Of a DNA stretch of 32,000 nt, positions 6,470 through 25,746 are shown in pieces; position 1 is the stretch's first letter, and each line of letters begins with the position of its first letter. The notes beneath the pieces are model-generated. The model did no database searches. It saw nothing but the letters and a program-made list of their open reading frames with translations, and was not told the DNA's origin. The stretch covers positions 600,001-632,000 of the forward strand of contig CP011211.1 of the NCBI GenBank assembly GCA_001029695.1. The letters are read 5' to 3'. The translations under genes and the position numbers were made by a program. The stretch comes from Candidatus Saccharimonadota bacterium. GTDB lineage: Bacteria; Patescibacteriota; Saccharimonadia; Saccharimonadales; Saccharimonadaceae.

Positions 6470-6565
6470 GGTTTCAGTTCTATTCTGGGTATACAAAAAG
6501 TCAGAACCATTTTCACAGTTCTGACTTTGTCTGTTCCAGCTTGGCTCCCCATACAGGTCACGGAA
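6470..6565. repeat. Intergenic mosaic repeat, copy 5 (module A + H2 hairpin + CTTGGCTC + tail T2)
   Basis: The sequence is GGTTTCAGTTCTAttctGGGTATACAAAAAGTCAGAACCATTTTCACAGTTCTGACTTtgtctgttccagCTTGGCTCcccaTACAGGTCACGGA. It sits in a 394-bp non-coding gap. Confidence 0.8.
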
Positions 6566-6598
6566 CAATCACATGGGTGGCAGGACACGAGATGAGAC

Positions 6599-6639
6599 AA
6601 ATGAGACACAAAACGCATGTTTTAGGGCGTGTCTCATTT
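6599..6639. other. Strong 11-bp stem hairpin preceded by tandem ATGAGACA(A/C)
   Basis: The stem pairs AAATGAGACAC (6599-6609) with GTGTCTCATTT (6629-6639) across a 19-nt loop. No gene is adjacent. Function is unknown (sRNA element or terminator). Confidence 0.4.
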
Positions 6640-6689
6640 TAAAGGAGTTTAACTAACAAATTCCAGATCTTGAATCAGGTTTTATAACT

Positions 6690-6715
6690 AAAAGGAGGCC
6701 TTAAGGCCTCCTTTT
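6690..6715. terminator. Bidirectional rho-independent terminator downstream of hsp20
   Basis: AAAAGGAGGCC-ttaa-GGCCTCCTTTT forms a perfect 11-bp stem with A and T tracts on both sides. Confidence 0.85.
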
Positions 6716-6734
6716 AGGTTAGAACACGCGACTG

Positions 6735-7160
6735 CTATTTCTTCTTCGACGAGATAGCAATTTTCTTTGGTTCAGGCAGTGGTATGAGCGGGACGCTCAC
6801 TTTTAGGACTCCGTCATCGAGGTGTGCTTCGACCTTGTCAGCATCAGCACGCTTTGGTAGCGCAATGCGGCGGTAGAAGCTACTTGAGCTTTCACGCACA
6901 ACGTATTGTTTGCCTTTATCTTCCTCTTTTTCGTGACGTTCGGCACTAATCACGAGTGTACCGTTCTCCACTTCGATATTGACATCTTTCTGCTCAAAAT
7001 TAGGCAGATGCGCCTCAACTACAAGGTTATTATCTTTAGTAAAGACGTCAGTCGTCGGAATGTTAACGCCTTTTAGGGGCGACATCCAGTCATCACCAAA
7101 GAATTGTTTTTGTAATGCAGAAAGTTCTGCAAACGGATCCCACTTTACAAGATTGCTCAT
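6735..7160 (-). CDS. Small heat-shock protein, Hsp20/alpha-crystallin family
   Basis: The 141-aa ORF has an alpha-crystallin domain (VVEAHLPNFEQKDVNIEVENGTLVISAER...FYRRIALPKRADADKVEAHLDDGVLKVSVP). An SD aaAGGAGAaaatt precedes the ATG. Confidence 0.92.
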   Translation of the reverse strand: MSNLVKWDPFAELSALQKQFFGDDWMSPLKGVNIPTTDVFTKDNNLVVEAHLPNFEQKDVNIEVENGTLVISAERHEKEEDKGKQYVVRESSSSFYRRIALPKRADADKVEAHLDDGVLKVSVPLIPLPEPKKIAISSKKK

Positions 7161-7221
7161 AATTTTCTCCTTTCATCACTGTTTTAATGGTTTCCAGAGA
7201 AGCATAAAAGCTTCTATTTAT

Positions 7222-7250
7222 AATGTAGCAAACTAGCGCTCTCATGTCAA
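7222..7250 (-). promoter_or_regulatory. sigma70-like hsp20 promoter (TTGACA-17-TACATT)
   Basis: On the minus strand the sequence is cTTGACAtgagagcgctagtttgcTACATTataaat. It overlaps the CIRCE element. Confidence 0.6.
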
Positions 7251-7259
7251 GAGTGCTAG
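7233..7259. promoter_or_regulatory. CIRCE-like (HrcA operator) inverted repeat
   Basis: CTAGCGCTC-tcatgtcaa-GAGTGCTAG compared with TTAGCACTC-N9-GAGTGCTAA shows the outer bases changed symmetrically (T->C and A->G). Confidence 0.7.
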
Positions 7260-7277
7260 TTTACGTAAACCTGATAA

Positions 7278-7350
7278 ATTGTCAGTAGCGTGATTACTTA
7301 CTAGATACTTCGTAAAATACATGCCTTAGCTCCTAATGCGGGCCTTGAAC
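7278..7350. repeat. Intergenic mosaic repeat, copy 6 (degenerate H1 + CTTAGCTC + degenerate T2)
   Basis: The sequence is attgtCAGTAGCGTGAttacttACTAGatacttcgtaaaatacatgcCTTAGCTCctaatGCGGGCCttgaac. It shares CAGTAGCGTGA with copy 1. Confidence 0.4.
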
Positions 7351-7370
7351 CTCATACGCCGATTCATTGG

Positions 7371-7865
7371 TTATTCATGCATTGACAGGCCATTAAGCAT
7401 ATCTTTGCCGGCCCTTTGCAGGGCTGCGCCATGATCTTTGGAGCCGATCCAATCTGGCATATCGATCGTTCCGGCTTCTTCGAGCAAGAGCCCTTCGATT
7501 AATTCTCTAGCGTCCATCGCCAGTCGCTTGTTGAGACCATTGATTTGCAACTGGTGTGCGGTATTTTTGCCGATGATTTGTATGCCGGCAAAAAATGCCG
7601 TATCGATATAAACTACTCGACCTATATCGCGCACCGGCATCGTTTCGATGAACGATACTAGGAATTGATTGCGGATGATCGAAATAGTTTTTTCCTGCAC
7701 CACGAGCTCGTCAGGAAAAATATCGGTAATCCAATGCGCTTTGAGTTTTAGCAGCTCGCGGTTATAGCCTTTTTGGCTCGGCAACGTGCTTGATTCAACT
7801 TTGCCAGTCTGTATCTGTGCAGGGTACGGCATATTGCGGCCTGTTTGAGTAACTCCGTTTGCCAT
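7371..7865 (-). CDS. Hypothetical protein
   Basis: The 164-aa ORF has a GGGAGG SD 7 nt upstream of ATG 7865. I recognise no motif. It lies immediately downstream of the Clp remnant, so it was probably once co-transcribed with that gene. Confidence 0.6.
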   Translation of the reverse strand: MANGVTQTGRNMPYPAQIQTGKVESSTLPSQKGYNRELLKLKAHWITDIFPDELVVQEKTISIIRNQFLVSFIETMPVRDIGRVVYIDTAFFAGIQIIGKNTAHQLQINGLNKRLAMDARELIEGLLLEEAGTIDMPDWIGSKDHGAALQRAGKDMLNGLSMHE

Positions 7866-7891
7866 AACAACCTCCCATACTTACTTACCTT

Positions 7892-8050
7892 TTACTGCTT
7901 TTTCTTTACCTTTGAAGATTTAGTAAGCTTCAGACTCACACCATCTTTGCTATCGTAAGTAAACGTGACAGTTGAGCCTTTGCCAACCTTACTGCCTAGT
8001 ATTTCAGTAGCCAGCTTGTTCTCAACTTCACTTTTAATGCGCCGTTTCAG
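7892..8050 (-). pseudogene. 3'-terminal remnant (52 codons + stop) of a second Clp/Hsp100 ATPase gene
   Basis: Not in the ORF track. Minus-strand translation gives LKRRIKSEVENKLATEILGSKVGKGSTVTFTYDSKDGVSLKLTKSSKVKKKQ*. It aligns with the extreme C-terminus of Clp ATPases (compare resident Clp[34 protein letters not shown]). The frame is closed by TAG at 8051-8053 and has no start codon. Confidence 0.7.
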
Positions 8051-8070
8051 CTATATTAGCACGAGCGGTA

Positions 8071-8781
8071 CTATTTGTCAATCTTATGCAAGTCCCACGC
8101 AGTAATAATACCTAGGGGAGTTGCCGATGCATCCCCCTTGTCCGATACAAGAACTGCCAAGAGTCGCTGGCCCTTTTTTATAGCATTATTAAACATATCC
8201 TCAATCTCATAAACGGTCACTTTCCTGGTGACAAATGCATATACATCAGAGTCATCGCCATAGGGCTTGTCGTAGGCAACATCCTTAATTTTTGCTTCAT
8301 CGATAAGTGCACCACCATGTTCAAAAGCTTTATCTACAATTTTAACAACAGTACTCTCAGATACGAAACCTATCACCCTTTTATCTTCTACTATCGGCAG
8401 ACTTGTAATGTGCATTTGAGCCATCTGTCTAACTACTTCCGATAAGTTATCGTCGAGTCCAACTTTTATTAGCTCGGTAGTCGCAATATCCCATGCAGTT
8501 TTTGGCTGCTCTATATTTACAACCAACTGACGAAGTGCCGTGACAGTTTCCTCATAAGGCTCTGCAATTGCGCGGTCCGTAGATTGATGGATAATCGCAT
8601 TGCGTAGCTCTATAAACTGTCGAATGTCTCTTTCAAATTGTCTAACTACACGGTCCTTATGGATATTAACAAGTGATGAGACCACCGATGATATAGATTC
8701 TTCGCTGCGAGCATTTGCTCGCTTCTTGAGCATCGTCTCTAATTTATTGAATTCGATCCTGTATTCTTCAGCTCGCGTCAT
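8071..8781 (-). CDS. HEPN-domain (Swt1-like, Rx4H) protein fused to a CBS-domain pair
   Basis: The 236-aa ORF has an N-terminal helical domain ending in FIELRNAIIHQS (R-x4-H HEPN motif). Two CBS repeats follow (TELIKVGLDDNLSEVVRQMAQMHITSLPIVEDKRVIGFVSES and AFVTRKVTVYEIEDMFNNAIKKGQRLLAVLVSDKGDASATPLGIITAWDL). An AGGAGG SD precedes the ATG. Confidence 0.7.
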   Translation of the reverse strand: MTRAEEYRIEFNKLETMLKKRANARSEESISSVVSSLVNIHKDRVVRQFERDIRQFIELRNAIIHQSTDRAIAEPYEETVTALRQLVVNIEQPKTAWDIATTELIKVGLDDNLSEVVRQMAQMHITSLPIVEDKRVIGFVSESTVVKIVDKAFEHGGALIDEAKIKDVAYDKPYGDDSDVYAFVTRKVTVYEIEDMFNNAIKKGQRLLAVLVSDKGDASATPLGIITAWDLHKIDK

Positions 8782-8785
8782 AACG

Positions 8786-9514
8786 CTATATCCTCCTGGC
8801 TGTTACATAATTATCAGTTCTTTGATTCCTTAGCTTTATCAGCTCACTCGTCATATTCATATACGACAGGTACTCGTCGACCGTTTTCGGTATTGGTGTC
8901 GAACGGAAGTCATCGAAAGGCTCAGCTATTTTGACGCTCGTGTAATCTTCTGTCACGTAATCTTGTAGCAAAAAGAAGTCGATATAGCCCTTAAAATCAT
9001 CGAAAAGTTGAAAGAAGTCACTATACCTCACGAAGGTTTCATATAGCGGGCTAGCTTCACCTAAATAAAAGCGCCGGATACACTCAATCGTTAGATCGAG
9101 GCGATCGACAATCTGCCGGTTAAAACCTCTGGCGCCATTGATAGTCTGGAACCCATTTATTTTATTACTAGGCCAAATTACGATTCCACCTATCGTATCT
9201 GTGAGACGAATAAAATCCTCTAATTCTTTTGCGGGAATCTGATCAATTACATGCTTCATCTTCACCCACGACGAGAACGTGGCAATTGCTCGGTCACTTG
9301 ATAAATAAAACTCACCCAGTTCAGACCTATGATACAAACGGTTATCGCTAATTTTTGTTAGCTCAAACATTTTTCCGCTAGGCAGTGGCTTGCTCCATAA
9401 GATGCGGTGATATTCCTGCAAAGTTGGGCTGTATTTATCCGAATCCCTCTGGACACCAGCCCTATCAAGGCCGGCTTCTTTCTGAAAATCAAAATCGACA
9501 TCAATTGCGCTCAT
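8786..9514 (-). CDS. Conserved-looking protein of unknown function
   Basis: ORF 8786..9535 starts with TTG. ATG 9514 has a GAGGAAGGG SD and lies 4 nt after the HAD stop. Blocks are YHRILWSKPLPSGK, IWPSNKINGFQTINGARG and DRLDLTIECIRRFY. I vaguely recall a DUF-type family (possibly DUF6994) but cannot verify it. Confidence 0.6.
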   Translation of the reverse strand: MSAIDVDFDFQKEAGLDRAGVQRDSDKYSPTLQEYHRILWSKPLPSGKMFELTKISDNRLYHRSELGEFYLSSDRAIATFSSWVKMKHVIDQIPAKELEDFIRLTDTIGGIVIWPSNKINGFQTINGARGFNRQIVDRLDLTIECIRRFYLGEASPLYETFVRYSDFFQLFDDFKGYIDFFLLQDYVTEDYTSVKIAEPFDDFRSTPIPKTVDEYLSYMNMTSELIKLRNQRTDNYVTARRI

Positions 9515-9518
9515 GATT

Positions 9519-9941
9519 TCACCCTTCCTCGACAATCGACTTCAGTAGTTTTAGTTCATGCACCATTTGATCAGGATATTTGGCTAAATTAACTTCAATC
9601 CACGAGTTGAAGACTCCGTGCTCATGCAGGTCAATCTTCTCGCCACTAAAGCAGTCGTCGTCGAACCACAGAAATGGTTTCGTAAAGTCGATCGCTTCAG
9701 TTTTCTTCAAGCTCCAAGTGACTGGCTTAAACTTTTCGAGCCACGGTCGTAAGTCTTCATCACTTCCACGCTGCAAGTACTCAATTGCGTGACCGGTCGT
9801 TCCATCCATGCAGTGTGTCGTGAGCCAATATACATCAAAATTATCTGCAGCATATTTTATAAACTCAGCCGCCCCGATAGCCAAGTTCTCTTCGTTTGCT
9901 AGCAGTACCCCGTCGATGTCTAAATATAGAGCAGGTTTCAT
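9519..9941 (-). CDS. Cap-less HAD-superfamily phosphatase
   Basis: ORF 9519..9980 trimmed to ATG 9941, which overlaps the upstream stop as ATGA. Motif I is LYLDIDGVLL (DxDGx), motif II is WLTTHC, and motif IV is LWFDDD. Confidence 0.75.
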   Translation of the reverse strand: MKPALYLDIDGVLLANEENLAIGAAEFIKYAADNFDVYWLTTHCMDGTTGHAIEYLQRGSDEDLRPWLEKFKPVTWSLKKTEAIDFTKPFLWFDDDCFSGEKIDLHEHGVFNSWIEVNLAKYPDQMVHELKLLKSIVEEG

Positions 9942-11287
9942 ATTTTTAATAGCTCCTGCCATATCCTCACCATCGCCCACGTATCCATCCTGCAGTACTC
10001 AGTCAAGTCGGCGAGTATCTGCTCTTTCTGGTCCGCCCGCGTCTCATCGAGTACCGCCTCCATCCAGAGCCGTTGAGCGGAGTTGCCATCTTGAATACCA
10101 AGCTCTTTGTAGCTTAATTCGGGGCACACTACTGGCAACACCTTTTTGATGCTCGCGCTTCCCTCGCATCGCGGATCGTCATACCATTTTGCCTTGAACG
10201 GAATCATGAGGTCAACGACTCGTTCGTTGATGGCCGTGATTTGTTCGGCATACTCTGGGTACATCCGTCCCAGCTCTTCGTTAACCGATTTTTCAAAGCG
10301 CATATTCCAGGTAATGATTGATCCCGAATCGCCCATATCTTCTACTAGCCGTTTAGCTAAATCTGGTGCTGGATTAGTGTTATCTTTATGGAGATATTCT
10401 CGATGCTCTACTTCCCCGCCCGGCTCGCGGATGATATGCAAAGAGTATTGGAACGGTACCTGCTGATACGGTCGCTGTCCATCGAAATACGGCACAAGGC
10501 CCTGCATTGTTTCGTAATCAAAGAAGTAGAGTGGGTACTGCAATTCACCCAAAAAGCGCTCGATCTCCTGCTTGTTAATTTCGGCTCGAGTATCTGCTGG
10601 CCACACCGTAGGCTCGGGCGGAAATATATTTTCATAGACCTTCATCCATTCAGATTTTGAGCCTAGCTTAGCCAGCTCTGGATTCGGATCCGGCATTTCG
10701 GCTTGCGTGGCGGCTTTATTCGCTGCCTCCATGTATTCTGGAGTTTTTAAAGCAATTTCATTTACCTCATCTGTCACATCAGCAAACGTCGTAAGCTCTT
10801 TTGGATTAACGTCGCCCATACGAACGTACTGGTTATTTACATGGATCACCGATACATTTCGAACCGTAAAGCCATTACCCTCAAGCACGGTTTTCTGGAA
10901 CGCAAGATCGTATAGGTGATCTGGTTTAACGCATGTGCTGGATTTAATTTCATACAGGTCAATAGTCTTACCCTCTACAATTGAAACAATATCGGAGATA
11001 CACGTAAATCCATTCCATTCAAAACGGGGCTGGAATACTACCTGAGCACCCGATTCAAATGCTTGCTGGGTTCGTAGCGGTAGCGAACGGTACTCATCGA
11101 AATTACTGAAGCCGAGCGCCACGCCTTCAGGAAATAATGACTCAACATACGGCTCGAACGCATGCCCAGCGTCGAACATTGCTTGTGTCGCTGCGTCGAC
11201 GGGTGGAAGTTTGCTCGGGTCATTCTTTTTCAGCCAAAGCCAGGCTGGCTGGCGGAGAAAGAGCATGTAATCGGATTTGGATATCAT
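9938..11287 (-). CDS. Two-nuclease fusion: N-terminal PD-(D/E)xK (Cas4/RecB-like) + C-terminal DEDD/RNase-H-fold exonuclease (DUF2779-like)
   Basis: In the 449-aa ORF, ISDIVSIVEGKTIDLYEIKSS supplies D...ExK. The C-terminal half has YFFDYET (ExoI DxE), ITWNMRFEKSV (ExoII) and EYCRMDTWAMV (ExoIII YxxxD). The overall layout matches what I remember of DUF2779 proteins. Confidence 0.7.
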   Translation of the reverse strand: MISKSDYMLFLRQPAWLWLKKNDPSKLPPVDAATQAMFDAGHAFEPYVESLFPEGVALGFSNFDEYRSLPLRTQQAFESGAQVVFQPRFEWNGFTCISDIVSIVEGKTIDLYEIKSSTCVKPDHLYDLAFQKTVLEGNGFTVRNVSVIHVNNQYVRMGDVNPKELTTFADVTDEVNEIALKTPEYMEAANKAATQAEMPDPNPELAKLGSKSEWMKVYENIFPPEPTVWPADTRAEINKQEIERFLGELQYPLYFFDYETMQGLVPYFDGQRPYQQVPFQYSLHIIREPGGEVEHREYLHKDNTNPAPDLAKRLVEDMGDSGSIITWNMRFEKSVNEELGRMYPEYAEQITAINERVVDLMIPFKAKWYDDPRCEGSASIKKVLPVVCPELSYKELGIQDGNSAQRLWMEAVLDETRADQKEQILADLTEYCRMDTWAMVRIWQELLKI

Positions 11288-12105
11288 TGCTGTGACAACC
11301 TGAGTGGAAACTTTACCACCTGACGCTGATTGTTAGCTTCGTCCTTTTGCCGCTCATAATACGGATCGCCTACAAGCTGTACTTGGCCACGATACATATA
11401 CTCTTTCGGCTCAAACGATTCAAATAAATGCACGCCTACTCCATTCGTGCGCGATTCGGCCAAGGTTTTGTTCTGTGCATAATCTATCGACTGATCACCT
11501 GAGAGCCCCATGCCGGTGTAGTGCATCACGCCCTGGTCGTCCCATTTGTCTTCGTACGGATTGCCAGTATTATGCAGTGCAAAAAGAATCAAGCTATTGG
11601 CGCGGTTCGACTTTCGCATACCACCCTGCCCGCTCACGAGGAACATCCGCATGATATCTTCATTTTTATAAGCATCGCCAATCACTAGCTCGTGTAATGC
11701 AGGCTGTCGTTTATCTTTTGTAATTTGCTCTAGTAGCTCCACGTCAGCCGGCGCTAGCTCATAGCCATATAGTTGCCGCAGATTATCTACCCACGCTAGC
11801 TCAGAGTGCTCGCGTAGCTGGTAAGCTCCTAGTTTGTGTTCACAAGCGTATAGCTTGAGCATGATTTCATCGTTTATCTGCGTGTTTGCGAGCAGCTTAC
11901 TGACAGCGATAAGTGTGTTGAACTCTTCGACTATCTCGCGCTCTAGCGCCTCCTGTTCGGTCTCGCCATCCTCCACCTTACCGCCAGGAAATTCCCACAA
12001 GCCACCAAGTGCCGCATCAACCTTACGCTTAGCGATGAGGTATTTACCATTTCTTTCTATCAGCGCTGCAACAACAATCTTGTGCGTATTATCTTTTTTA
12101 TCCAT
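11284..12105 (-). CDS. MutT-type NUDIX hydrolase fused to an SRA/YDG-like (PUA-fold) putative modified-base-binding domain
   Basis: In the 273-aa ORF the N-terminal half contains GGLWEFPGGKVEDGETEQEALEREIVEEF (MutT-like Nudix box). The C-terminal ~135 aa read GGMRKSNRANSLILFALHNTGNPYEDKWDDQGVMHYTGMGLSGDQ...NKTLAES...VHLFES...YMYRGQVQL. This follows the SAD/SRA core pattern (G-x-R, buried strand, acidic Y-E-D, YTG-G). The assignment is from memory and needs an HMM check. Confidence 0.65.
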   Translation of the reverse strand: MDKKDNTHKIVVAALIERNGKYLIAKRKVDAALGGLWEFPGGKVEDGETEQEALEREIVEEFNTLIAVSKLLANTQINDEIMLKLYACEHKLGAYQLREHSELAWVDNLRQLYGYELAPADVELLEQITKDKRQPALHELVIGDAYKNEDIMRMFLVSGQGGMRKSNRANSLILFALHNTGNPYEDKWDDQGVMHYTGMGLSGDQSIDYAQNKTLAESRTNGVGVHLFESFEPKEYMYRGQVQLVGDPYYERQKDEANNQRQVVKFPLRLSQQ

Positions 12106-12799
12106 GACGTATCTCCAAGCTTTCTTTAATTTGCCTCCAGTGCGACAATTTACTGTTCATTATTCTATAAAATGCTTCGTCATGTTTCTTATTTACTACA
12201 TGACACAACTCATGAATACAAACATAATAAATTGCTTCGCGTGGCGCTTCAATGAGTCGCGGATTAAGTAGCACCTTGCCATCACTCGTATAACTGCCCC
12301 AGCGACGAGCCATAATGCGCTGTCCGAGCTGTGGCATTGTTTTATAATCGAATAATTTAAAAGCTTTCACGTACTCCTGCTTAAATATACGCTCACGATT
12401 ACGTGCATACCACTCGCCAAGTAGCTTTTTATTGTTTTCGCTGTTTTGTACTGAGCCAGTCGTATAGATTCGGAGCTTACCACGCTCTAACTTCACCGTA
12501 TCATTTTTAGCTTTTTCGACTAAAAGCATATACTGACGACCCAGGTAATAATACGACTCACCAGATATATACTTTCGCTCTGTGTTAGATTTTTTGAATT
12601 TACGCAGTTCAGATAATTGTCGCTCGAGCCACGACCATTTACGTTTCATAAACGACTCAATTTCGTCTAGTGTAGCGCCCAGCGGTGCTTTTACGATTAT
12701 TCGTAAGTTTGGCAGCACCTCAAGAGCTAGAGTTTTGCGCTTGGCAAATTCAATAAAATATTCGTAACTAAACCGCCCATACTCAAACTTTTGCTTCAC
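12098..12799 (-). CDS. DUF45/YgjP-like M48-type zinc metallopeptidase (common type I R-M accessory gene)
   Basis: The 233-aa ORF has a GTG start 2 nt after the hsdR stop. The HExxH motif sits in YYVCIHELCHVVNKKHD, and the WSYTSDGKVLLNPRL-type block (RWGSYTSDGKVLLNPRL) is typical of DUF45. Confidence 0.8.
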   Translation of the reverse strand: MKQKFEYGRFSYEYFIEFAKRKTLALEVLPNLRIIVKAPLGATLDEIESFMKRKWSWLERQLSELRKFKKSNTERKYISGESYYYLGRQYMLLVEKAKNDTVKLERGKLRIYTTGSVQNSENNKKLLGEWYARNRERIFKQEYVKAFKLFDYKTMPQLGQRIMARRWGSYTSDGKVLLNPRLIEAPREAIYYVCIHELCHVVNKKHDEAFYRIMNSKLSHWRQIKESLEIRHG

Positions 12800-12801
12800 A
12801 G

Positions 12802-15800
12802 CTACACCCCGTAGTCTGAATGGTTGTTTTCGGCGAGTGTCATAACTTTTTCGACGATTTGCTCTATTTGTTCATTTTCAAGTTCGATACCACGCCCAAT
12901 CTTAATCTCTTCGTAAACATAGTCATCGATGTTCGATCGCATCTGTCGCTTGATTTCATAGTTTCGCCACCAATCAACCGTCGCGCTCCGCTGCACTACA
13001 TTTGCTAGCTCTAAAATAATTTGTTGGTACTGCTCGTCACTTTCCATAGGCAACATTTCACGCAAGTTTCGATACAGCGCCCCCGCACCTGGTTCGCTTT
13101 GCACTACATCAGGGGTTTCATCATCTTTTTTCTGATCAACCTCTTTTTCAATTTCTCGTAGTTGCTTCAGCGCTTCGATATCTGCCATCTTCTTTTCGTG
13201 CATCGCCTGTAGTATTTCAGCAATTCGCTCCGAAAACTTACCATACAGCACTTCGTCGTCCTGCTGTCGCTCAGTAATTCGCCGTTTCGTTTGCGCAGCA
13301 ATTGCTTCGGCCTTCGATGTTACGCTTCCCAGCTCTTCAATCGCAGCGTTCAACTCATCACGGTTCGTCACTTCTATCTGGTCGGTTAGCACCTCGGCCT
13401 GAGACGCCGTCACGTATTGGTCGAGTATTCGGCTAATTTCGCGCTCGTACTGCTTCAAATCGATTTCTTCACCGTTCATCAAATCAGCATTGCGTTTTAA
13501 TTCGGCAAACTTTTTGATATCACGGCGATAGCGCTGTATCTCATCGTCACTAATCTTCTCTGCAAACCCACGAAGCGCCTTACATTCTTCGTATACATTC
13601 AGTAGCTGGTTAAACTTATCTTTATAGATTTTGCGTGTCGGCTCATCGCGCAGATGCTCGATGTAGCTATGGCTATCTTTTTCAACACCGTTGAACACAT
13701 CAAGCACTGCCGCATACTTTTGCGCCAGTTCTTCTACTTTGTCATTTATATCAATCAGCGTGCCTTTGACATCCGCTTCATCAAAATTGCCAAACAAATC
13801 CATGGCTTCCTGAATACTTGTGGCATTTTCAGAGTAGTCAATAATGAATCCGCTCGTCTTTGGATAATGCGGGTTATTAAACAGTCGGTTCACCCGCGCA
13901 ATTGCCTGTAGCAAGTTATGGTCGACCAACTTTTTTGCCAAATACAGCACGGTATTTCGCGGCGCATCAAACCCTGTCAGCAACTTATCGACAACAATTA
14001 AAAGCTCTATACCTTCTGGGTTGTTTTTGAAGTCATCGATTGTCATATCTTCGTAGGTTTTGAGCCCAGCATATTTAGCTTTTATCTCACTCAAATAATC
14101 AGCCACCTCTTGTTTCTTTAGGTCTTCTTCGCTGATTTCGTTGTTGTCATCACTAATTATCAGGGCTGTTTGGAGTTTATGTCGCCGCTCAAACCACCGC
14201 TGCATCACCACCGCGGCATATTTACTTGGCGCAACAATCTGACCCTTCAGACCTGTGTGCTGAAAATTATCGATGTAGTGCTGCTCAATATTCGCACACA
14301 CCTCTTCGAGCTTGCTCGGCACTTCGGCCAAAGTTCTATTCTCGACGCGCCGCTGTAGCTTATACTTATTTTGCGCCGACAGGTCTTCGCTTACTCGGTC
14401 GGCCAGTCTATCGATTTGCGGTGCGTTTTGGTCGAGCGCCACATAACGACCTTCATAAATCAGCGGCAATACTACATTATCAGCTAGCGCATCGTCTATC
14501 GTGTATTTATCGATAAACTCGCCGAATTTACTGCGTGATTTATCTTTTCGTAGCAGCGGCGTGCCAGTAAACGCAATCACGCATGCGTTCGGGATCACCC
14601 GTAGCATTTCCATATTGGCATCGCCGCCCTGTGAGCGGTGCGCTTCGTCAATTAGTACATAAATATTATCATCGGTATCTACAAAGTCCGTCCGCTTTTT
14701 GCCAGCACTTTCAAACTTATGAATCAGTGTCGTTAGTACGCTGGTGTCTTTACTCTTGATATGCTCCAGCAGCTCGTTACCGCTGGTCATTTGCTTGACT
14801 TTTTTCTTGAGGCCGCCGTTTTCAAACGTCTTTTTGATCTGCTTGTCCAGATCTACGCGGTCGGTCACCATTAGTACCCGCGGGTTTACTATGTGCGGTT
14901 GCTCTATCAGGGCGCGCACAAACATCACCATTGTCAGACTTTTACCAGAACCTTGGGTGTGCCATACAATACCACCCTTGTGGCGGCTGCCATACTCAGT
15001 TGTCTCAGTTTGTTTGATGCGCTCTAGCATTCGCTCTATGGCAAAATACTGCTGGTAGCGCGCCACTTTTTTGTATGCACCGTCATAAAATACAAAGTTT
15101 TTAACTATATCGAGCACCCGCTCTTGCCGTAGCATACCGTAAATCGTCTCGTCTTGCGGCATAATGCTACGCACCTGTAGTTGCTCCACACCATAGGTCG
15201 CACCGTTAAGGTCGCGCAGCAGCTGTGCGTATACGTCTTTGTCGATCGGCTTTGCTATGACATCTCGTAGTGTTGCGTGTAATCGCTCTTTTGGTGTATT
15301 CTTTTCACGCCACGATGAATAAAACTCTTCGGGCGTGCCCGCTGTGCCATATACCGCGTTTTCACCGTCCATAGCCAGCAGCAGCTGCTCGTAGATAAAT
15401 AGCTTAGGCGCATGGTCAGGCTTTTGGTAGCGCAGTAGCTGAGCAATAGCTTTTTTGTAGCCAACACTCGATTTTTTGTTTTCGATATGCACCAGCGGTA
15501 TACCGTTTACAAAACACACTATGTCCGCTCGTATCGCTTCGCGCCCCACCACACGATACTCTACCGTTACATGAAATTCATTATTGGCTATATTATCAAA
15601 GTCAAAATACCGCAGGCTTTTGTTTTCGTGCTTGCCCTCATGAAATACCTCTATGGTGCTACCTCCAAGTTTTGGCATGATGATATCCGTCACCGCCCGA
15701 CTAGTATCTATCACGCCGTCTACGCGGATAGATTCTAATTCGCTAACAACCCGCGCAATGTCACCTTCTTTGAACTTGTGCGTTTCGCCTACGTGTTCAT

Positions 15801-15984
15801 AGCTGTTTATACGCATTAAACTACGCCGCAGCACATCACCCAGTATCACGCGGCTATCATCGTCGCCCCGTAGCGCTAGCGCTTGCTTGCAGCTAAGGTA
15901 CTGCCAGCCGAGGTTTATCAGTAGCTCGACCGCCGGCAGCTGCGACTGCTTGGCTTCGTCAAAATTTATCGGTTCCATGCTCAT
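12802..15984 (-). CDS. hsdR: Type I restriction enzyme R subunit
   Basis: The 1060-aa ORF has an N-terminal HsdR_N nuclease region (DIVCFVNGIPLVHIENKK), SF2 helicase Walker A HTQGSGKSLTM, and DEAH box VLIDEAHRSQ. The ATGA overlap joins it to the hsdS stop. Confidence 0.95.
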   Translation of the reverse strand: MSMEPINFDEAKQSQLPAVELLINLGWQYLSCKQALALRGDDDSRVILGDVLRRSLMRINSYEHVGETHKFKEGDIARVVSELESIRVDGVIDTSRAVTDIIMPKLGGSTIEVFHEGKHENKSLRYFDFDNIANNEFHVTVEYRVVGREAIRADIVCFVNGIPLVHIENKKSSVGYKKAIAQLLRYQKPDHAPKLFIYEQLLLAMDGENAVYGTAGTPEEFYSSWREKNTPKERLHATLRDVIAKPIDKDVYAQLLRDLNGATYGVEQLQVRSIMPQDETIYGMLRQERVLDIVKNFVFYDGAYKKVARYQQYFAIERMLERIKQTETTEYGSRHKGGIVWHTQGSGKSLTMVMFVRALIEQPHIVNPRVLMVTDRVDLDKQIKKTFENGGLKKKVKQMTSGNELLEHIKSKDTSVLTTLIHKFESAGKKRTDFVDTDDNIYVLIDEAHRSQGGDANMEMLRVIPNACVIAFTGTPLLRKDKSRSKFGEFIDKYTIDDALADNVVLPLIYEGRYVALDQNAPQIDRLADRVSEDLSAQNKYKLQRRVENRTLAEVPSKLEEVCANIEQHYIDNFQHTGLKGQIVAPSKYAAVVMQRWFERRHKLQTALIISDDNNEISEEDLKKQEVADYLSEIKAKYAGLKTYEDMTIDDFKNNPEGIELLIVVDKLLTGFDAPRNTVLYLAKKLVDHNLLQAIARVNRLFNNPHYPKTSGFIIDYSENATSIQEAMDLFGNFDEADVKGTLIDINDKVEELAQKYAAVLDVFNGVEKDSHSYIEHLRDEPTRKIYKDKFNQLLNVYEECKALRGFAEKISDDEIQRYRRDIKKFAELKRNADLMNGEEIDLKQYEREISRILDQYVTASQAEVLTDQIEVTNRDELNAAIEELGSVTSKAEAIAAQTKRRITERQQDDEVLYGKFSERIAEILQAMHEKKMADIEALKQLREIEKEVDQKKDDETPDVVQSEPGAGALYRNLREMLPMESDEQYQQIILELANVVQRSATVDWWRNYEIKRQMRSNIDDYVYEEIKIGRGIELENEQIEQIVEKVMTLAENNHSDYGV

Positions 15985-19092: not shown

Positions 19093-19637
19093 TACGCTTC
19101 TCCTTTTGCATTATTCATAACTTTCAACGTCTTTTCCAGCTGCTCACGCAGTTTCTCATCCGTCATCTCGCCCCGCTCGTCTTGCGCCTGGGCTTTAAGG
19201 ATGTTCATCAGCTCCTGGCCATCTTGAAACGTCTTATTGAGCTTTTCGATATCTTGCTCCTGCCTTGCAAGCAGCTGCTGGCGTTTACGAGATTGCTCAA
19301 AAAGCCCGGCAAAAAATACCACAAATCCAATCATGCCAATAATGACAGCCACTCGGCTATTAAACGACGGCACCGTAATTGTTAGCCCGGCAGTTGCTAT
19401 GGCAACAAACATTGGCAACAAGAATTTACACATACCAATCCAGTGATCGATTCCCTGAAGTTGCTTGACATGAAGTGACTGCACTATATTAAGTGCCCGC
19501 TCGGTCATATCGAAATGATCGCTCATCATGTTCATGGCTCCCTCCATGATTTGAGCGTATTTTGCCATACCACCCATTTGCTCAAAAGATTGTATGGCCA
19601 GCTCTAGCTCTTCTTGGGTAACTGGCTTACTATTCAT
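19092..19637 (-). CDS. Two-TM membrane protein with C-terminal coiled coil, unknown function
   Basis: The 181-aa ORF has TM segments FLLPMFVAIATAGLTITVP and VAVIIGMIGFVVFFAGLF, then RKRQQLLARQEQDIEKLNKTFQDGQELMNILKAQAQ. It overlaps both neighbouring genes. Confidence 0.6.
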   Translation of the reverse strand: MNSKPVTQEELELAIQSFEQMGGMAKYAQIMEGAMNMMSDHFDMTERALNIVQSLHVKQLQGIDHWIGMCKFLLPMFVAIATAGLTITVPSFNSRVAVIIGMIGFVVFFAGLFEQSRKRQQLLARQEQDIEKLNKTFQDGQELMNILKAQAQDERGEMTDEKLREQLEKTLKVMNNAKGEA

Positions 19638-23409: not shown

Positions 23410-23484
23410 ATTTGCAGTATATACCTTGTTTACTATTTGCTCTAGTCGTTGCGGCATTTTCTAAAAGCGCTTCAAGACCACGCA

Positions 23485-24456: not shown

Positions 24457-25746
24457 ATGTTGTTGCTTGCAATGGAAACACAAGCACCTCAACTAAAATA
24501 TTGCCTCTACGCACGAAAGTCGTCTGAATCCGACGAACGTCAGGCTATGAGCATTGATTCACAACTGACTGAGATGCGGGCACTTGCTGTAAACGAAGGC
24601 TTAAATGTCGTATGTGAACTACAAGAAAGTCACTCAGCAAAAGACTCGGGCAAGCGGCCAGTGTATAACCAAATGCTCGCCGGAATAGCGAATGATGAAT
24701 ATAACGCCGTACTCACCTGGGCACCAGACCGCCTCAGCCGAAACGCTGGCGACTTAGGTTCAGTAGTAGACCTGATGGACCAACATAAGCTACTTCACAT
24801 CCGTACTTATTCGCAAACATTTACCAATAGCCCGAACGAGAAGTTCTTGCTCATGATCCTCTGTTCGCAAGCCAAGCTTGAGAATGACAACAAAAGCATC
24901 AACGTAAAACGCGGAATACGCATGAAGTGTGAAATGGGCTGGCGCCCTGGAGTTGCTCCGCTTGGTTATATGAACCGTGCTTTCGCTGGAGTAAACGATA
25001 TTATTCTCGATCCAGATCGAGCAGAGCTCATTACTGAAGCTTTCCAAAAGGCAGGATACGAGCGCTGGAGTGGTCGAAGAATAAAAGCATGGCTCGATGA
25101 ACAGGGCTTCACAAACCGTTCAGGTAAACCAATTAGTGTTAGTCAGATACTAGTTATTCTCATGACCCCGTTCTATTATGGCAAATTCCAATACCCCGAA
25201 GCACCTGATGCACCGTGGTACACAGGCGCTCATAAGCCCCTCATATCCAAGGAACTATTCGACCTCGTCCAAGAAACACGAGGAGTATATAAGGGCGTAT
25301 GGGGTTCAAAGACATTCGCCTTCAGGGGTATGCTCAAGTGTGGGCAATGCGATGCAGACATAACCGCACAGGACAAGTTTAAGCTGCTAAAAAGCGGTGA
25401 TACAAAGCGATTCGTCTACTACAACTGTACTCGTCGTAAAGATCCGGATTGCAAAGAGAAATACGTCAATGAGGAGAAGCTTTGTGAGCTATTGCAGGCC
25501 TTCATCGAGCAACATCACCAAAAAATGGCTATTGAAGAAAAGCTACGTGCGAAAGTAGATAAACATTTCTACGTCACCAAAACCCTACTAAATCATTACA
25601 AGATCGACAGAGATCTTGATAACCCATTCGTTGAGTATTCAAGATACATACTTGCGAGCGGTACGGAGGGCGATAGGATTAGATTCGCCTCTGGGATCAA
25701 GACAAAGCTCCAAATACGGCACGGTGAACTTGAGTTCTACGCATAA
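24457..25746 (+). CDS. Large serine recombinase (resolvase + recombinase + zinc-ribbon domains)
   Basis: The 429-aa ORF has an alternative start at ATG 24472. The N-terminus YCLYARKSSESDERQAMSIDSQ is the serine-recombinase catalytic region. A recombinase domain follows (WSGRRIKAWLDEQGFTNRSGKPISVSQILVILMTPFYYGKFQY), then a Cys4 ribbon CGQCDADITAQ...YYNCTRRKDPDC. Confidence 0.88.
   Translation: MLLLAMETQAPQLKYCLYARKSSESDERQAMSIDSQLTEMRALAVNEGLNVVCELQESHSAKDSGKRPVYNQMLAGIANDEYNAVLTWAPDRLSRNAGDLGSVVDLMDQHKLLHIRTYSQTFTNSPNEKFLLMILCSQAKLENDNKSINVKRGIRMKCEMGWRPGVAPLGYMNRAFAGVNDIILDPDRAELITEAFQKAGYERWSGRRIKAWLDEQGFTNRSGKPISVSQILVILMTPFYYGKFQYPEAPDAPWYTGAHKPLISKELFDLVQETRGVYKGVWGSKTFAFRGMLKCGQCDADITAQDKFKLLKSGDTKRFVYYNCTRRKDPDCKEKYVNEEKLCELLQAFIEQHHQKMAIEEKLRAKVDKHFYVTKTLLNHYKIDRDLDNPFVEYSRYILASGTEGDRIRFASGIKTKLQIRHGELEFYA

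What the first reader, a model, noticed from the sequence alone, without database searches (positions are those of the whole stretch)
8071..12105. Five-gene module of unassigned function fused onto the 3' end of a type I R-M operon: candidate undescribed defence/conflict system
The canonical end of a type I R-M operon is hsdR plus the DUF45/M48 peptidase. Here five more genes follow with no intergenic space. The junctions are an 8-nt overlap at 12098-12105, ATGA overlaps at 11284-11287 and 9938-9941, and 4-nt gaps at 9515-9518 and 8782-8785.

The five genes are:
- a MutT-type Nudix fused to an SRA/YDG-like domain;
- a PD-(D/E)xK plus DEDD exonuclease fusion;
- a cap-less HAD phosphatase;
- a conserved unknown;
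- a HEPN (Rx4H) plus CBS-pair protein.

So the set combines a putative modified-base reader, two phospho/nucleotide hydrolases, two DNases or exonucleases, and a potentially ligand-gated RNase. It matches no named system that I know of: not Gabija, Septu, PARIS, Zorya, Druantia, Thoeris, CBASS, Lamassu, Wadjet, Dnd/Ssp, BREX, DISARM or Mokosh. Its position in a recombinase-bounded island beside R-M and OLD genes is the usual guilt-by-association signature.

Three hypotheses, all inference:
(a) A modification-dependent, type-IV-like arm that complements the modification-blocked type I enzyme.
(b) Sanitation or depletion of non-canonical dNTPs, with Nudix converting dNTP to dNMP and HAD converting dNMP to nucleoside, aimed at phages with hypermodified bases.
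(c) An RNA damage/repair pair. HEPN RNases leave 2',3'-cyclic phosphate ends, and the 3'-phosphatase of T4 Pnkp is a DxDxT HAD enzyme.
Basis: partly seen in the sequence, partly recalled or inferred. Interest (0 to 1): 0.85.

Follow-up and report, generated by a model that had tools for sequence, protein, structure and literature searches.

The report
Mix-and-match accessory genes behind a restriction operon
The five tightly packed genes after this Saccharibacteria type I restriction operon are real, but they look like several separable accessory defence-type genes rather than one new five-gene system, and two of them resemble kinds already catalogued.

Summary
Five co-directional genes with overlapping or 4-nt junctions follow hsdR and ygjP, and the domain calls are essentially right: NudG-like Nudix+SRA, DUF2779 nuclease, capless HAD, DUF6994, and HEPN(RNxxxH)+CBS pair.

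The interpretation as one undescribed five-gene system is not supported. The intact block occurs only in close Saccharibacteria relatives (~87-90% identity). Elsewhere the genes separate:
- Nudix-SRA stands alone or follows McrBC.
- HEPN-CBS directly follows type I HsdR-YgjP, a type III Res gene, or DUF5655.
- HAD+DUF6994 occur without the other three.
- DUF6994 was found in 564 candidate stretches of a one-genome-per-species collection. In 79 of the best 80 loci it had no other block member adjacent.

Two members match known kinds. The Nudix matches PADLOC candidate PDC-S07, a reported companion of type IV restriction, and has Nudix-SRA-HNH and split MutT + SRA-HNH relatives. HEPN+CBS has the domain content of DS-11, a validated single-protein defence, but is not an orthologue.

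Leads not described in the papers searched:
- a recurrent DUF2779→HAD gene pair;
- DUF6994 as a gene at the end of R-M operons;
- HEPN-CBS repeatedly beside NTP pyrophosphatases.

Best reading: a stack of separable accessory modules in a serine-recombinase-bounded defence island.

The parts
11284..12105 (-). Nudix-SRA protein (273 aa). The NudG/MutT2-like Nudix domain spans about aa 9-131 (11713-12081). The ScoMcrA-type SRA domain spans about aa 137-271 (11293-11697). There is no nuclease domain.
   Evidence: Pfam NUDIX_4 1.5e-14, NUDIX 2.2e-12, SAD_SRA 4e-4. PADLOC PDC-S07 2.9e-36. Best PDB match is E. coli NudG, 2rrk: 1.6e-30 by profile, 1.5e-18 by sequence. PF26348 SRA_ScoMcrA appears in the homologues. 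Nudix-box residues E48, R56, E60 are invariant and E57, E61 nearly so. There is a weak ScoMcrA SRA match sharing the motif YxGxGLSGDQ.
9938..11287 (-). DUF2779 protein (449 aa): an N-terminal Cas4-like PD-(D/E)xK nuclease fused to a C-terminal DEDDy-type 3'-5' exonuclease.
   Evidence: Pfam DUF2779 2.8e-42, with weak Cas4 and RNase_H_2 hits. D99, D110, E113, K115 and D257, E259, D359, Y431, D435 are invariant in a 10-sequence alignment reaching down to 33% identity. The published domain dissection of the family is in PMC13621843.
9519..9941 (-). Small capless HAD-fold phosphatase-like protein (140 aa).
   Evidence: The window protein itself has no Pfam hit. Its family comprises 532 representative clusters. 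D8 is invariant; T41, K80, D94 and D95 are near-invariant, which corresponds to HAD motifs I-IV. Of 36 homologues, 11 weakly hit PF18143 HAD_SAK_2 and 8 hit Hydrolase_6. The gene lies immediately downstream of DUF2779 in L182, L200/201, L084 and L092-95.
8786..9514 (-). DUF6994 protein (242 aa): a highly conserved stand-alone protein, possibly a degenerate His-Me/HNH-like nuclease.
   Evidence: Pfam PF22507 1.7e-85. In the one-genome-per-species collection, 564 stretches encode a relative. The AF2 model has pLDDT 94.7. The top PDB fold match is BrxU/GmrSD, but only at E=0.17. The Pfam authors describe a ββα fold lacking the catalytic His.
8071..8781 (-). HEPN-CBS protein (236 aa). The helical HEPN-like domain spans aa 1-92, with RNxxxH at aa 60-65 (8587-8604). 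The CBS pair spans aa 97-236 (8074-8493).
   Evidence: CBS PF00571 9.4e-13. Weak hits to DUF3644 (a HEPN family) at 1.5e-3 and HEPN_RiboL-PSP at 9e-3. R60, N61 and H65 are invariant in 25 sequences down to 23% identity. The AF2 model has pLDDT 91.4, and Foldseek places the C-terminal half among nucleotide-binding CBS pairs.
12098..15984 (-). Context: type I HsdR (12802-15984) and the YgjP-like metallopeptidase (12098-12799), immediately upstream in the same transcription unit.
   Evidence: Pfam; PADLOC REase_I 5e-139.
24457..25746 (+). Context: a large serine recombinase at the far end of the island. A homologous recombinase + RadC left end is shared with locus L084.
   Evidence: Pfam Resolvase/Recombinase/Zn_ribbon_recom. 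L084 recombinase 2e-52 and RadC 1e-96.

Best explanation
The 4-kb tail is a stack of separable accessory genes. They have accreted at the 3' end of the restriction operon of a serine-recombinase-bounded defence island in a Candidatus Saccharibacteria genome. It is not one obligate five-gene machine. I see three or four modules.

(1) Nudix-SRA is a nuclease-less relative of Nudix-SRA-HNH and MutT + SRA-HNH type IV (McrA-like) enzymes. Inferred mechanism: the SRA domain flips out and reads 5mC-type modified cytosine in DNA. The NudG-like Nudix domain hydrolyses modified or pyrimidine dNTPs to dNMPs. This would either starve phages that use modified cytosine or keep modified dC out of host DNA, so that modification-dependent nucleases do not attack self.

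(2) DUF2779 + HAD is a recurrent nuclease/exonuclease plus small phosphatase pair. Inferred mechanism: DNA degradation with 3'-phosphate end-cleaning or dNMP dephosphorylation.

(3) DUF6994 is a stand-alone gene that often sits at the end of R-M operons. It may be a degenerate HNH-like nuclease.

(4) HEPN-CBS is a single-protein RNase gated by an adenine-nucleotide ligand, with the same domain content as the validated DS-11. Its position at the tail of R-M operons recalls the logic of PrrC. Inferred mechanism: abortive infection when the ligand state changes during infection.

Shown: gene structure, domain identities, conserved catalytic residues, and the mix-and-match neighbourhoods. Inferred: all substrates, ligands and phenotypes.
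For: Separability:
- DUF6994 was recovered in 564 stretches of the one-genome-per-species collection. In the best 80 loci, Nudix-SRA and HEPN-CBS are never present, HAD is adjacent once, and DUF2779 lies within 10 kb in 5 loci but is never adjacent.
- The 136 genes flanking DUF6994 fall into 129 Pfam families.
- Nudix-SRA occurs alone beside a type III island (L086-91), directly after McrC (L197-199), and between DUF2779 and McrBC (L200/201).
- HEPN-CBS occurs directly after HsdR-YgjP with none of the other four genes. That locus (L100) comes from a genome whose ClpB is 96% identical to the window's. It also occurs after type III Res (L191/192) and after DUF5655 (L206-208).
- HAD+DUF6994 occur alone in L001.
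- Some relatives carry decayed members: DUF2779 is cut to 134 aa in L081-83 and DUF6994 to 100 aa in L084, while their neighbours stay intact.

Links to known kinds:
- PDC-S07, 2.9e-36.
- PDC-S07 co-localised with type IV R-M in 23/23 S. suis cases.
- MutT homologues sit next to SauUSI.
- Priestia and Bacillus plasmids carry mutT + SRA-HNH two-gene operons.
- Nudix-SRA-HNH fusions exist.
- DS-11, a CBS+HEPN protein, is validated, and mutations in either domain abolish defence.

DUF2779→HAD adjacency recurs in four arrangements.

The rest of the operon is also full of PADLOC candidate accessory genes: RhuM=PDC-S05, DUF5655=PDC-S18, and an AriA/OLD-like ATPase.
Against: - The full five-gene order is conserved, with tight junctions, in L092/94/95 behind a different HsdR. 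A four-gene version sits behind a different R-M type in L084. So at least Nudix-SRA-DUF2779-HAD-DUF6994 has moved or persisted as a cassette.
- L200/201 again combine Nudix-SRA, two DUF2779 copies and HAD in a different order. This hints at a functional link beyond shared descent.
- All loci with these combinations are probably from related CPR bacteria, so I cannot separate shared descent from selection.
- Sampling of Nudix-SRA, HAD and DUF2779 neighbourhoods was much thinner than for DUF6994.
- No experiment exists for any of these five proteins.
Confidence: 0.6

Rival explanations
1. Four-gene cassette plus one. Nudix-SRA, DUF2779, HAD and DUF6994 would form one CPR-specific modification-dependent restriction and nucleotide-sanitation system. 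SRA reads modified DNA, DUF2779 and/or DUF6994 supply the nuclease that the missing HNH domain would otherwise provide, and Nudix and HAD destroy modified dNTP and dNMP. HEPN-CBS would be an independent gene at the end of the R-M operon.
For: The four genes keep their order behind three different R-M systems: the window, L092-95 and L084. Nudix-SRA and DUF2779 are adjacent in both orders, and DUF2779→HAD recurs in L200/201 and L182. Relatives of Nudix-SRA carry an HNH domain that this protein lacks. HEPN-CBS occurs without the four genes, and the four occur without HEPN-CBS.
Against: Nudix-SRA is intact where DUF2779 is truncated (L081-83) and where no DUF2779, HAD or DUF6994 is present (L086-91, L197-199). 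DUF6994 is truncated in L084 while the other three are intact. In 79 distant loci DUF6994 has none of the other genes adjacent. DUF2779 is widespread as a solo gene, including on 32 plasmids, whereas a search for the HAD gene across the plasmid collection found no match.
Confidence: 0.2
2. One integrated five-gene defence system. A modified-base reader, two nucleotide hydrolases, two nucleases and a ligand-gated RNase would act together.
For: Tight junctions and a single transcription unit. The intact five-gene block is present in L092/94/95. HEPN-CBS homologues recur beside NTP pyrophosphatases: Nudix in L193-196, MazG-like in L204, and Ham1 in L193. The Nudix enzyme could therefore control the CBS ligand.
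Against: Every subset of the five exists on its own. There is no co-occurrence outside close relatives. Truncated members sit beside intact neighbours.
Confidence: 0.08
3. The tail is not defence but nucleic-acid salvage or repair for a nucleotide-auxotrophic epibiont. Exonuclease, Nudix and phosphatase would convert restricted foreign DNA or damaged nucleotides into usable or harmless nucleosides. DUF2779 would act as a housekeeping repair nuclease.
For: DUF2779 is quasi-essential in the minimal Mycoplasma JCVI-syn3.0 and is widely distributed as a solo gene. The Nudix domain is closest to house-cleaning NudG/MutT enzymes. The host is a Saccharibacterium; that such bacteria have reduced biosynthesis is my own background knowledge.
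Against: The genes sit in a variable, recombinase-bounded island. A genome with 96%-identical ClpB lacks four of them. The SRA reader, the McrBC and type III/I R-M neighbourhoods and the HEPN RNase are hallmarks of conflict systems. The Nudix domain matches a defence-island-derived PADLOC candidate.
Confidence: 0.1

Closest known systems
PADLOC candidate PDC-S07 (small MutT-like Nudix found beside type IV restriction enzymes such as SauUSI) and SRA-HNH type IV enzymes (ScoMcrA/McrA-like)
   Same: The Nudix domain matches the PDC-S07 profile end to end (2.9e-36). The C-terminal domain is the ScoMcrA-type SRA reader. Relatives are Nudix-SRA-HNH fusions, adjacent mutT + SRA-HNH genes, or genes directly after McrBC.
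   Different: Here Nudix and SRA are fused and there is no HNH or other nuclease domain in the protein. PDC-S07 itself is an unvalidated candidate. No substrate or phenotype is known.
DS-11 (DefensePredictor; single-protein CBS + HEPN anti-phage defence, validated in E. coli)
   Same: The domain content is the same: a nucleotide-binding CBS module plus a HEPN RNase motif, in one stand-alone protein. HEPN catalytic residues are conserved.
   Different: It scores 20 bits against NCBIfam DS11_antiphage (cut-off 260), so it is not an orthologue. The domain order appears reversed (HEPN N-terminal here), and the protein is shorter (236 aa against a 305-position profile). The family is almost confined to Saccharibacteria and is typically the last gene of an R-M operon.
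PrrC/RloC anticodon nucleases embedded in type I R-M operons
   Same: A HEPN-type RNase is genetically tied to a restriction operon, alongside RhuM-type genes. This is the logic of a latent RNase that backs up restriction.
   Different: There is no ABC-ATPase domain. A CBS pair replaces the nucleotide-sensing ATPase. No evidence exists for physical association with the R-M enzyme or for a tRNA target.
DUF2779/UU173 family (Cas4-like nuclease + exonuclease; MMSYN1_0389)
   Same: It passes the Pfam threshold, and both catalytic motif sets are conserved.
   Different: The Saccharibacterial forms lack the four-cysteine insert seen in distant members. They are located in an island and often followed by a small HAD gene.
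HAD domains of 'Swiss Army Knife' RNA-repair proteins (PF18143) and the T4 Pnkp phosphatase
   Same: It is a small capless HAD fold with DxD...T...K...DD motifs, and some family members weakly match HAD_SAK_2.
   Different: The window protein itself passes no Pfam model. It is a stand-alone 140-aa protein, and no ligase or kinase partner is present.

Membership tests
Single conserved multi-gene defence system (the five genes as one unit) | The component genes co-occur and are syntenic in phylogenetically distant genomes. | tested here: not met
   Of 80 DUF6994 loci across phyla, 0 have Nudix-SRA, 0 have HEPN-CBS and 1 has HAD adjacent. Partial combinations and solo genes occur in relatives.
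PADLOC PDC-S07 | Match to the PDC-S07 profile. | tested here: met
   PDLC04899 2.9e-36, 122 bits, residues 9-131 on profile positions 7-131 of 135.
PADLOC PDC-S07 | Co-localisation with type IV (modification-dependent) restriction. | tested here: met
   The protein is fused to an SRA reader. Homologues sit directly after McrBC or next to SRA-HNH genes. Literature reports 23/23 co-localisation in S. suis.
SRA-HNH type IV restriction endonuclease (ScoMcrA/McrA-like) | SRA-type modified-cytosine reader domain. | tested here: met
   PF26348 SRA_ScoMcrA in all close homologues. Locally SAD_SRA 4e-4 and DUF3427 1e-4. Weak ScoMcrA 5zmn match with a shared GLSGDQ motif.
SRA-HNH type IV restriction endonuclease (ScoMcrA/McrA-like) | HNH nuclease domain in the same polypeptide. 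| tested here: not met
   The protein ends at aa 273. Relatives of about 420 aa carry the extra HNH domain (PF01844), which is absent here.
NudG / MutT house-cleaning Nudix hydrolases | Intact Nudix box (GX5EX7REUXEEXGU catalytic Glu/Arg residues). | tested here: met
   E48, R56 and E60 are invariant; E57 and E61 are at least 90% conserved. The last Gly of the box is Asn.
NudG / MutT house-cleaning Nudix hydrolases | Score above the NCBIfam equivalog cut-off. | tested here: not met
   PRK10546 scores 99.4 bits against a cut-off of 156; TIGR00586 scores 67.8 against 97.9.
DS-11 (CBS + HEPN anti-phage protein) | CBS nucleotide-binding module and HEPN Rx4-6H motif in one protein. | tested here: met
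   CBS 9.4e-13. Foldseek places the model among CBS pairs at E~1e-8. R60, N61 and H65 are invariant.
DS-11 (CBS + HEPN anti-phage protein) | Sequence membership (NCBIfam NF053863 cut-off). | tested here: not met
   20.3 bits against a cut-off of 260, and only the CBS stretch aligns.
DS-11 (CBS + HEPN anti-phage protein) | Anti-phage phenotype dependent on the CBS and HEPN residues. | not testable with these tools
   Shown only for the E. coli DS-11.
PrrC/RloC | N-terminal ABC-type ATPase fused to the HEPN nuclease. | tested here: not met
   The 236-aa protein has only HEPN-like and CBS regions.
PrrC/RloC | Embedded in or attached to an R-M operon. | tested here: met
   The window; L100 (type I); L191/192 (type III); L206-208 and L205 (R-M contexts).
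DUF2779 (PF11074) | Pfam gathering score and conserved PD-(D/E)xK plus DEDDy residues. | tested here: met
   144 bits against a cut-off of 23.3. D99, D110, E113, K115, D257, E259, D359, Y431 and D435 are invariant.
DUF6994 (PF22507) | Pfam gathering score. | tested here: met
   286.7 bits against a cut-off of 27, full length.
HAD phosphatase superfamily | Motifs I-IV (DxD, S/T, K, DD). | tested here: met
   D8 is invariant; T41, K80, D94 and D95 are at least 90% conserved. The Asp+2 position (D10) is present here but replaced in some members.
HAD phosphatase superfamily | Significant match to a curated HAD model or solved structure. | tested here: inconclusive
   The window protein has no Pfam hit. 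Among homologues, 11 of 36 hit HAD_SAK_2 (best 2.8e-5) and 8 of 36 hit Hydrolase_6. The profile search against PDB finds only HAD phosphatases, but at E=0.24-0.9.

The most novel reading that the evidence does not exclude
Nudix-SRA, DUF2779, the small HAD and DUF6994 could form a CPR-specific, nuclease-in-trans, modification-dependent restriction and nucleotide-sanitation cassette that moves as a unit between R-M islands. The terminal HEPN-CBS RNase could be coupled to it through a nucleotide ligand that NTP pyrophosphatases create or destroy. HEPN-CBS homologues recur beside Nudix, MazG-like and Ham1 enzymes, which would fit a pyrophosphatase-controlled, CBS-gated abortive-infection switch.
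Probability: 0.2. Interest if true: 0.7.

Novelty: new variant of a known kind. Interest (0 to 1): 0.45.

Why it matters
The result shows how restriction operons in Saccharibacteria grow by collecting small accessory genes at their 3' end. Saccharibacteria belong to the CPR bacteria, a large radiation of small-genome bacteria known mostly from metagenomes (my own background knowledge, not tested here). The work gives concrete, testable leads:
- a nuclease-less Nudix-SRA reader that links dNTP house-cleaning to modification-dependent restriction;
- a HEPN-CBS variant with the domain content of the newly validated DS-11, tied to R-M operons and to NTP pyrophosphatases, which could reveal the unknown CBS ligand;
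- a conserved DUF2779-HAD pair;
- DUF6994 as a widespread gene found at the end of R-M operons.

It also warns against reading tight operon packing in one lineage as evidence for a multi-gene system.

Tried and rejected
- The metagenome scan with the Nudix-SRA alignment was swamped by generic MutT genes. Only about 8 of 80 loci carried an SRA part, so it added little.
- Sequence and profile searches of the HAD protein against PDB gave nothing significant. A tblastn search of the plasmid collection with the HAD protein found no match.
- Foldseek on the whole HEPN-CBS model returned only CBS pairs, so the HEPN fold is not confirmed structurally.
- Foldseek on DUF6994 gave only a weak BrxU/GmrSD top hit (E=0.17). 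This agrees with the Pfam authors' description but is not significant alone.
- I suspected that the 205-bp spacer after HEPN-CBS (8070-7866) held a ClpB C-terminal remnant marking the insertion site. BLAST against the window's ClpB and L100's ClpB found no support, and I dropped the idea.
- I looked for repeats between the two hsdS genes and around the recombinase, as a possible shufflon, and found none.
- PHROGs gave nothing for four of the five proteins.
- The five proteins produced no PADLOC hit to any named multi-gene system.

Full report
**Observation.**

The window's minus strand carries an uninterrupted run of genes from 24405 down to 8071. In order they are:
- DUF5655 and RadC;
- a half-size HsdS and HsdM;
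- RhuM, a 181-aa unknown, and an AAA_15 ATPase;
- HsdS, HsdR and a YgjP-like peptidase (Pfam);
- the five genes of the finding.

The last three depend on choosing the ATG starts at 9941 and 9514.

Consensus promoter and terminator counts in 6500-13500 do not exceed shuffled sequence. The best promoter-like site lies at 8081-8053, the very end of the last gene. The five genes therefore look like the tail of the R-M transcription unit. A large serine recombinase (24457-25746, + strand) lies at the other end.

The organism is a Candidatus Saccharibacteria bacterium. The HEPN-CBS protein is 100% identical to one annotated from that group on a 1.04-Mb contig, and the nearest DUF6994 locus in the species collection is a Saccharibacteria MAG.

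**What the five proteins are.**

*Nudix-SRA (12105-11284).*
- The N-terminal half is a MutT-type Nudix (NUDIX_4 1.5e-14).
- Its closest solved relative is E. coli NudG, a CTP / pyrimidine (d)NTP pyrophosphohydrolase (2rrk: 1.5e-18 by sequence, 1.6e-30 by profile).
- It scores below the NCBIfam equivalog cut-offs.
- The catalytic residues of the Nudix box are conserved.
- The same region matches the PADLOC candidate PDC-S07 across the whole profile (2.9e-36).
- The C-terminal half is an SRA domain of the ScoMcrA type. PF26348 is recorded for every close homologue. Locally there are weak SAD_SRA and DUF3427 hits, and a weak match to ScoMcrA shares the GLSGDQ motif.

*DUF2779 (11287-9938).* It passes Pfam (2.8e-42). 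A PD-(D/E)xK set (D99, D110, E113, K115) and a DEDDy exonuclease set (D257, E259, D359, Y431, D435) are invariant down to 33% identity. This agrees with the published dissection into a Cas4-like nuclease plus an exonuclease.

*HAD-like (9941-9519).* The protein has no Pfam hit of its own. Its family comprises 532 representative clusters and conserves HAD motifs I-IV. Some members weakly hit HAD_SAK_2, the HAD domain of 'Swiss Army Knife' RNA-repair proteins, and Hydrolase_6.

*DUF6994 (9514-8786).* It passes Pfam at 1.7e-85. The Pfam authors describe a ββα, HNH-like fold lacking the catalytic histidine. My AF2 model (pLDDT 94.7) gave BrxU/GmrSD as the top PDB match, but only at E=0.17.

*HEPN-CBS (8781-8071).* It has a helical N-terminal domain with invariant R60-N61-x3-H65. 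That domain weakly hits DUF3644, which Anantharaman et al. classed as a HEPN family found in R-M operons. The C-terminal CBS pair is confirmed by Pfam and by Foldseek against nucleotide-binding CBS proteins.

**Is it one system? Comparative evidence.**

I anchored on DUF6994 in the one-genome-per-species collection. In that scan, 564 stretches encode a relative, and I fetched the best 80 loci with 10-kb flanks. They come from Saccharibacteria, other Patescibacteria, Pelagibacteraceae, SAR86, Actinomycetes, Clostridia, Bacteroidota and archaea.

Searching those loci with the window's proteins gave:
- no Nudix-SRA (one weak Nudix-only hit) and no HEPN-CBS;
- the HAD gene adjacent only in L001, a 92%-identical Saccharibacterium, and 9 kb away in L003;
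- DUF2779 within 10 kb in five loci, never adjacent;
- type I R-M genes in about ten loci. DUF6994 directly follows HsdR in L012 and L051, and follows HsdR-DUF5655 in L047.

A Pfam census of the 136 immediately flanking genes found 129 different families. The commonest were Exo_endo_phos (6) and HsdR domains (3), followed by PTP-SAK/ADP-ribosylglycohydrolase, HNH, DUF5655 and HIT (2 each). DUF6994 therefore has no obligate partner.

Close relatives show a mix-and-match pattern:

| Loci | Identity to window | Arrangement |
|---|---|---|
| L092/94/95 | ~87-90% | All five genes in order, directly behind a different HsdR, no YgjP |
| L084 | 75% | Homologous serine recombinase + RadC left end, a different fused R-M type, then Nudix-SRA-DUF2779-HAD and a DUF6994 cut to 100 aa; no HEPN-CBS |
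| L081-83 | 89% | Intact Nudix-SRA followed by a DUF2779 remnant of 134 aa |
| L086-91 | 62% | Nudix-SRA alone, convergent with a type III R-M island |
| L197-199 | 59% | Nudix-SRA as the last gene after EVE-McrB and McrC, with an ATGA overlap |
| L200/201 | 67% | DUF2779 → Nudix-SRA → DUF4357-McrB → McrC → second DUF2779 → HAD |
| L182 (viral-collection contig) | 52% (HAD) | DUF2779 → HAD |
| L183 | 42% (HAD) | HAD directly upstream of hsdM |

HEPN-CBS is a narrow family of 89 proteins, nearly all from Saccharibacteria. Its contexts are:
- directly after HsdR-YgjP in L100, with none of the other four genes. That genome's ClpB is 96% identical to the window's, so it is a close relative with a different island content;
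- directly after a type III Res gene (L191/192);
- directly after DUF5655 beside a type I system (L206-208);
- in an operon with a DNA methyltransferase and a YgjP-like protease on a Chlorohelix plasmid;
- away from R-M but next to small Nudix genes (L193-196) and, on a Rhodococcus plasmid, next to an HNH endonuclease and a MazG-like NTP pyrophosphatase.

Every gene of the block can therefore be found without the others. Some relatives carry truncated members beside intact neighbours. The intact block is confined to one narrow clade.

**What is already known.**

*Nudix-SRA.*
- PDC-S07 is a PADLOC phage-defence candidate. A S. suis survey found it co-localised with type IV R-M in 23 of 23 cases.
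- Bell et al. noted MutT homologues next to SauUSI.
- My plasmid search found mutT + 'HNH endonuclease' (SRA-HNH) two-gene operons in Priestia and Bacillus. These together align with the whole Nudix-SRA protein.
- About 420-aa Nudix-SRA-HNH fusions exist.
- Nudix-SRA is thus a nuclease-less member of a recurring 'NTP pyrophosphatase + modified-cytosine reader (+ nuclease)' theme. The function of that theme is untested.

*HEPN-CBS.*
- Anantharaman et al. recorded HEPN-CBS fusions and proposed nucleotide-regulated RNA cleavage.
- DeWeirdt et al. validated DS-11, a single CBS+HEPN protein. Mutations in either domain abolished its defence.
- The window protein is not an orthologue: it scores 20 bits against a cut-off of 260. 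The domain order appears reversed.

*DUF2779, the HAD family and DUF6994.* In the literature I could search, none has an experimentally assigned function.

*Rest of the operon.* It also contains PADLOC candidates (RhuM=PDC-S05, DUF5655=PDC-S18) and an AriA/OLD-like ATPase. This fits accretion of accessory genes around R-M.

**Most likely mechanism.**

All of this is inference, except the domain identities and conserved residues.

- *Nudix-SRA.* The SRA domain binds flipped 5mC-type bases. The NudG-like domain hydrolyses modified or pyrimidine dNTPs. Together they would support modification-dependent restriction. They could deplete a phage's modified dCTP pool, or they could keep modified dC out of host DNA. 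Nuclease activity would be supplied in trans by McrBC in some genomes and possibly by DUF2779 or DUF6994 here.
- *DUF2779 + HAD.* An endo/exonuclease works with a small phosphatase. The phosphatase would either clear 3'-phosphate ends or dephosphorylate released dNMPs.
- *DUF6994.* A stand-alone effector, often the last gene of an R-M operon.
- *HEPN-CBS.* A latent RNase gated by an adenine-nucleotide ligant state. It resembles DS-11 in domain content and PrrC in its attachment to R-M operons.

I put about 0.6 on the modular reading, about 0.2 on a genuine four-gene cassette plus a separate HEPN-CBS, about 0.08 on a single five-gene system, and about 0.1 on a salvage or repair role.

**Limits.**
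- Neighbourhood sampling was deep only for DUF6994.
- Nudix-SRA, HAD, DUF2779 and HEPN-CBS contexts rest on a dozen look-ups and small scans.
- All loci with combined genes are probably from related CPR bacteria.
- The HEPN fold is inferred from motif and weak profile hits, not from a structural match.
- No experiment bears on any of these proteins.

**Verdict.**

The block is best seen as a new variant of a known pattern, namely accessory defence-type genes stacked on an R-M operon in a mobile island. It is not a categorically new five-gene system. The most useful new leads are the DUF2779-HAD pair, DUF6994 as a gene found at the end of R-M operons, and the repeated association of HEPN-CBS with both R-M operons and NTP pyrophosphatases.

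Noticed in passing
window 17275-20643 (minus strand): Three accessory genes lie between hsdM and the full-length hsdS. They are RhuM (PADLOC PDC-S05, 1e-142), a 181-aa protein with no hits, and a 605-aa AAA_15 ATPase matching PARIS AriA (9.7e-73) and Old/GajA profiles. I did not check whether the ATPase is an OLD-type nuclease or a PARIS-like sensor.
   Followed up: partly
window 22150-22707 and 15981-17306: The operon has two hsdS genes: a half-size one upstream of hsdM and a full one upstream of hsdR. A serine recombinase lies nearby. I looked for direct or inverted repeats that could mediate specificity switching and found none of 20 nt or longer.
   Followed up: yes
window 23485-24405 and 22765-23457: DUF5655 (PADLOC PDC-S18, 5e-94) and RadC head the operon. 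DUF5655 also sits directly upstream of DUF6994 (L010, L047) and of HEPN-CBS (L206-208). It is therefore another roaming R-M accessory gene.
   Followed up: partly
L193-196, L204 (HEPN-CBS homologue loci): HEPN-CBS homologues lie next to NTP pyrophosphatases of three different folds. These are a small Nudix (L193-195; in L196 a Nudix flanked by two HEPN-CBS paralogues), a MazG-like enzyme (L204), and a Ham1/ITPase two genes further on (L193). This recurrence is unexplained and may point to the CBS ligand.
   Followed up: partly
L030, L034, L037 and others; L077 (DUF6994 loci): In marine SAR86, Verrucomicrobia and Pelagibacter genomes, DUF6994 is flanked by an Exo_endo_phos (EEP) gene in 6 cases, some convergent with a 30-nt overlap. 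In three loci a 560-aa PTP-SAK + ADP-ribosylglycohydrolase protein lies within about 100-620 nt downstream. Phosphoesterases of several folds thus recur next to DUF6994.
   Followed up: partly
L200 6502-14955: Two full-length DUF2779 paralogues (E about 1e-190 each) bracket Nudix-SRA and a DUF4357-McrB/McrC pair. Only the second copy is followed by the HAD gene.
   Followed up: no
L100 versus window: L100 encodes a ClpB 96% identical to the window's. Its island, however, has a different type I R-M, and its HEPN-CBS is only 68% identical. The order of ClpB and the 164-aa gene also differs. The locus looks like a fast-evolving defence hotspot in a conserved genome.
   Followed up: partly
window 7893-8040 (minus strand): The spacer after HEPN-CBS contains an open frame ending in ...ENKLATEILGSKVGKGSTVTFTYDSKDGVSLKLTKSSKVKKKQ* with no start codon. 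It may be the remnant of a disrupted gene at the island boundary. It showed no significant similarity to ClpB.
   Followed up: partly
L104, L105, L107 (metagenome loci): Here an SRA-containing ORF is followed by a separate Nudix ORF, the reverse of the window's domain order. This is further evidence that the Nudix-SRA link is selected rather than accidental.
   Followed up: no
L001, L005, L182, L184: Several Saccharibacteria-like loci carrying the HAD, DUF6994 or DUF2779 genes share a set of other genes. These include an α/β-hydrolase-like protein, an FtsK-like P-loop protein, and a protein beginning 'YTHLKDRxYYExLYD'. The genes may therefore be cargo of a common mobile element.
   Followed up: no
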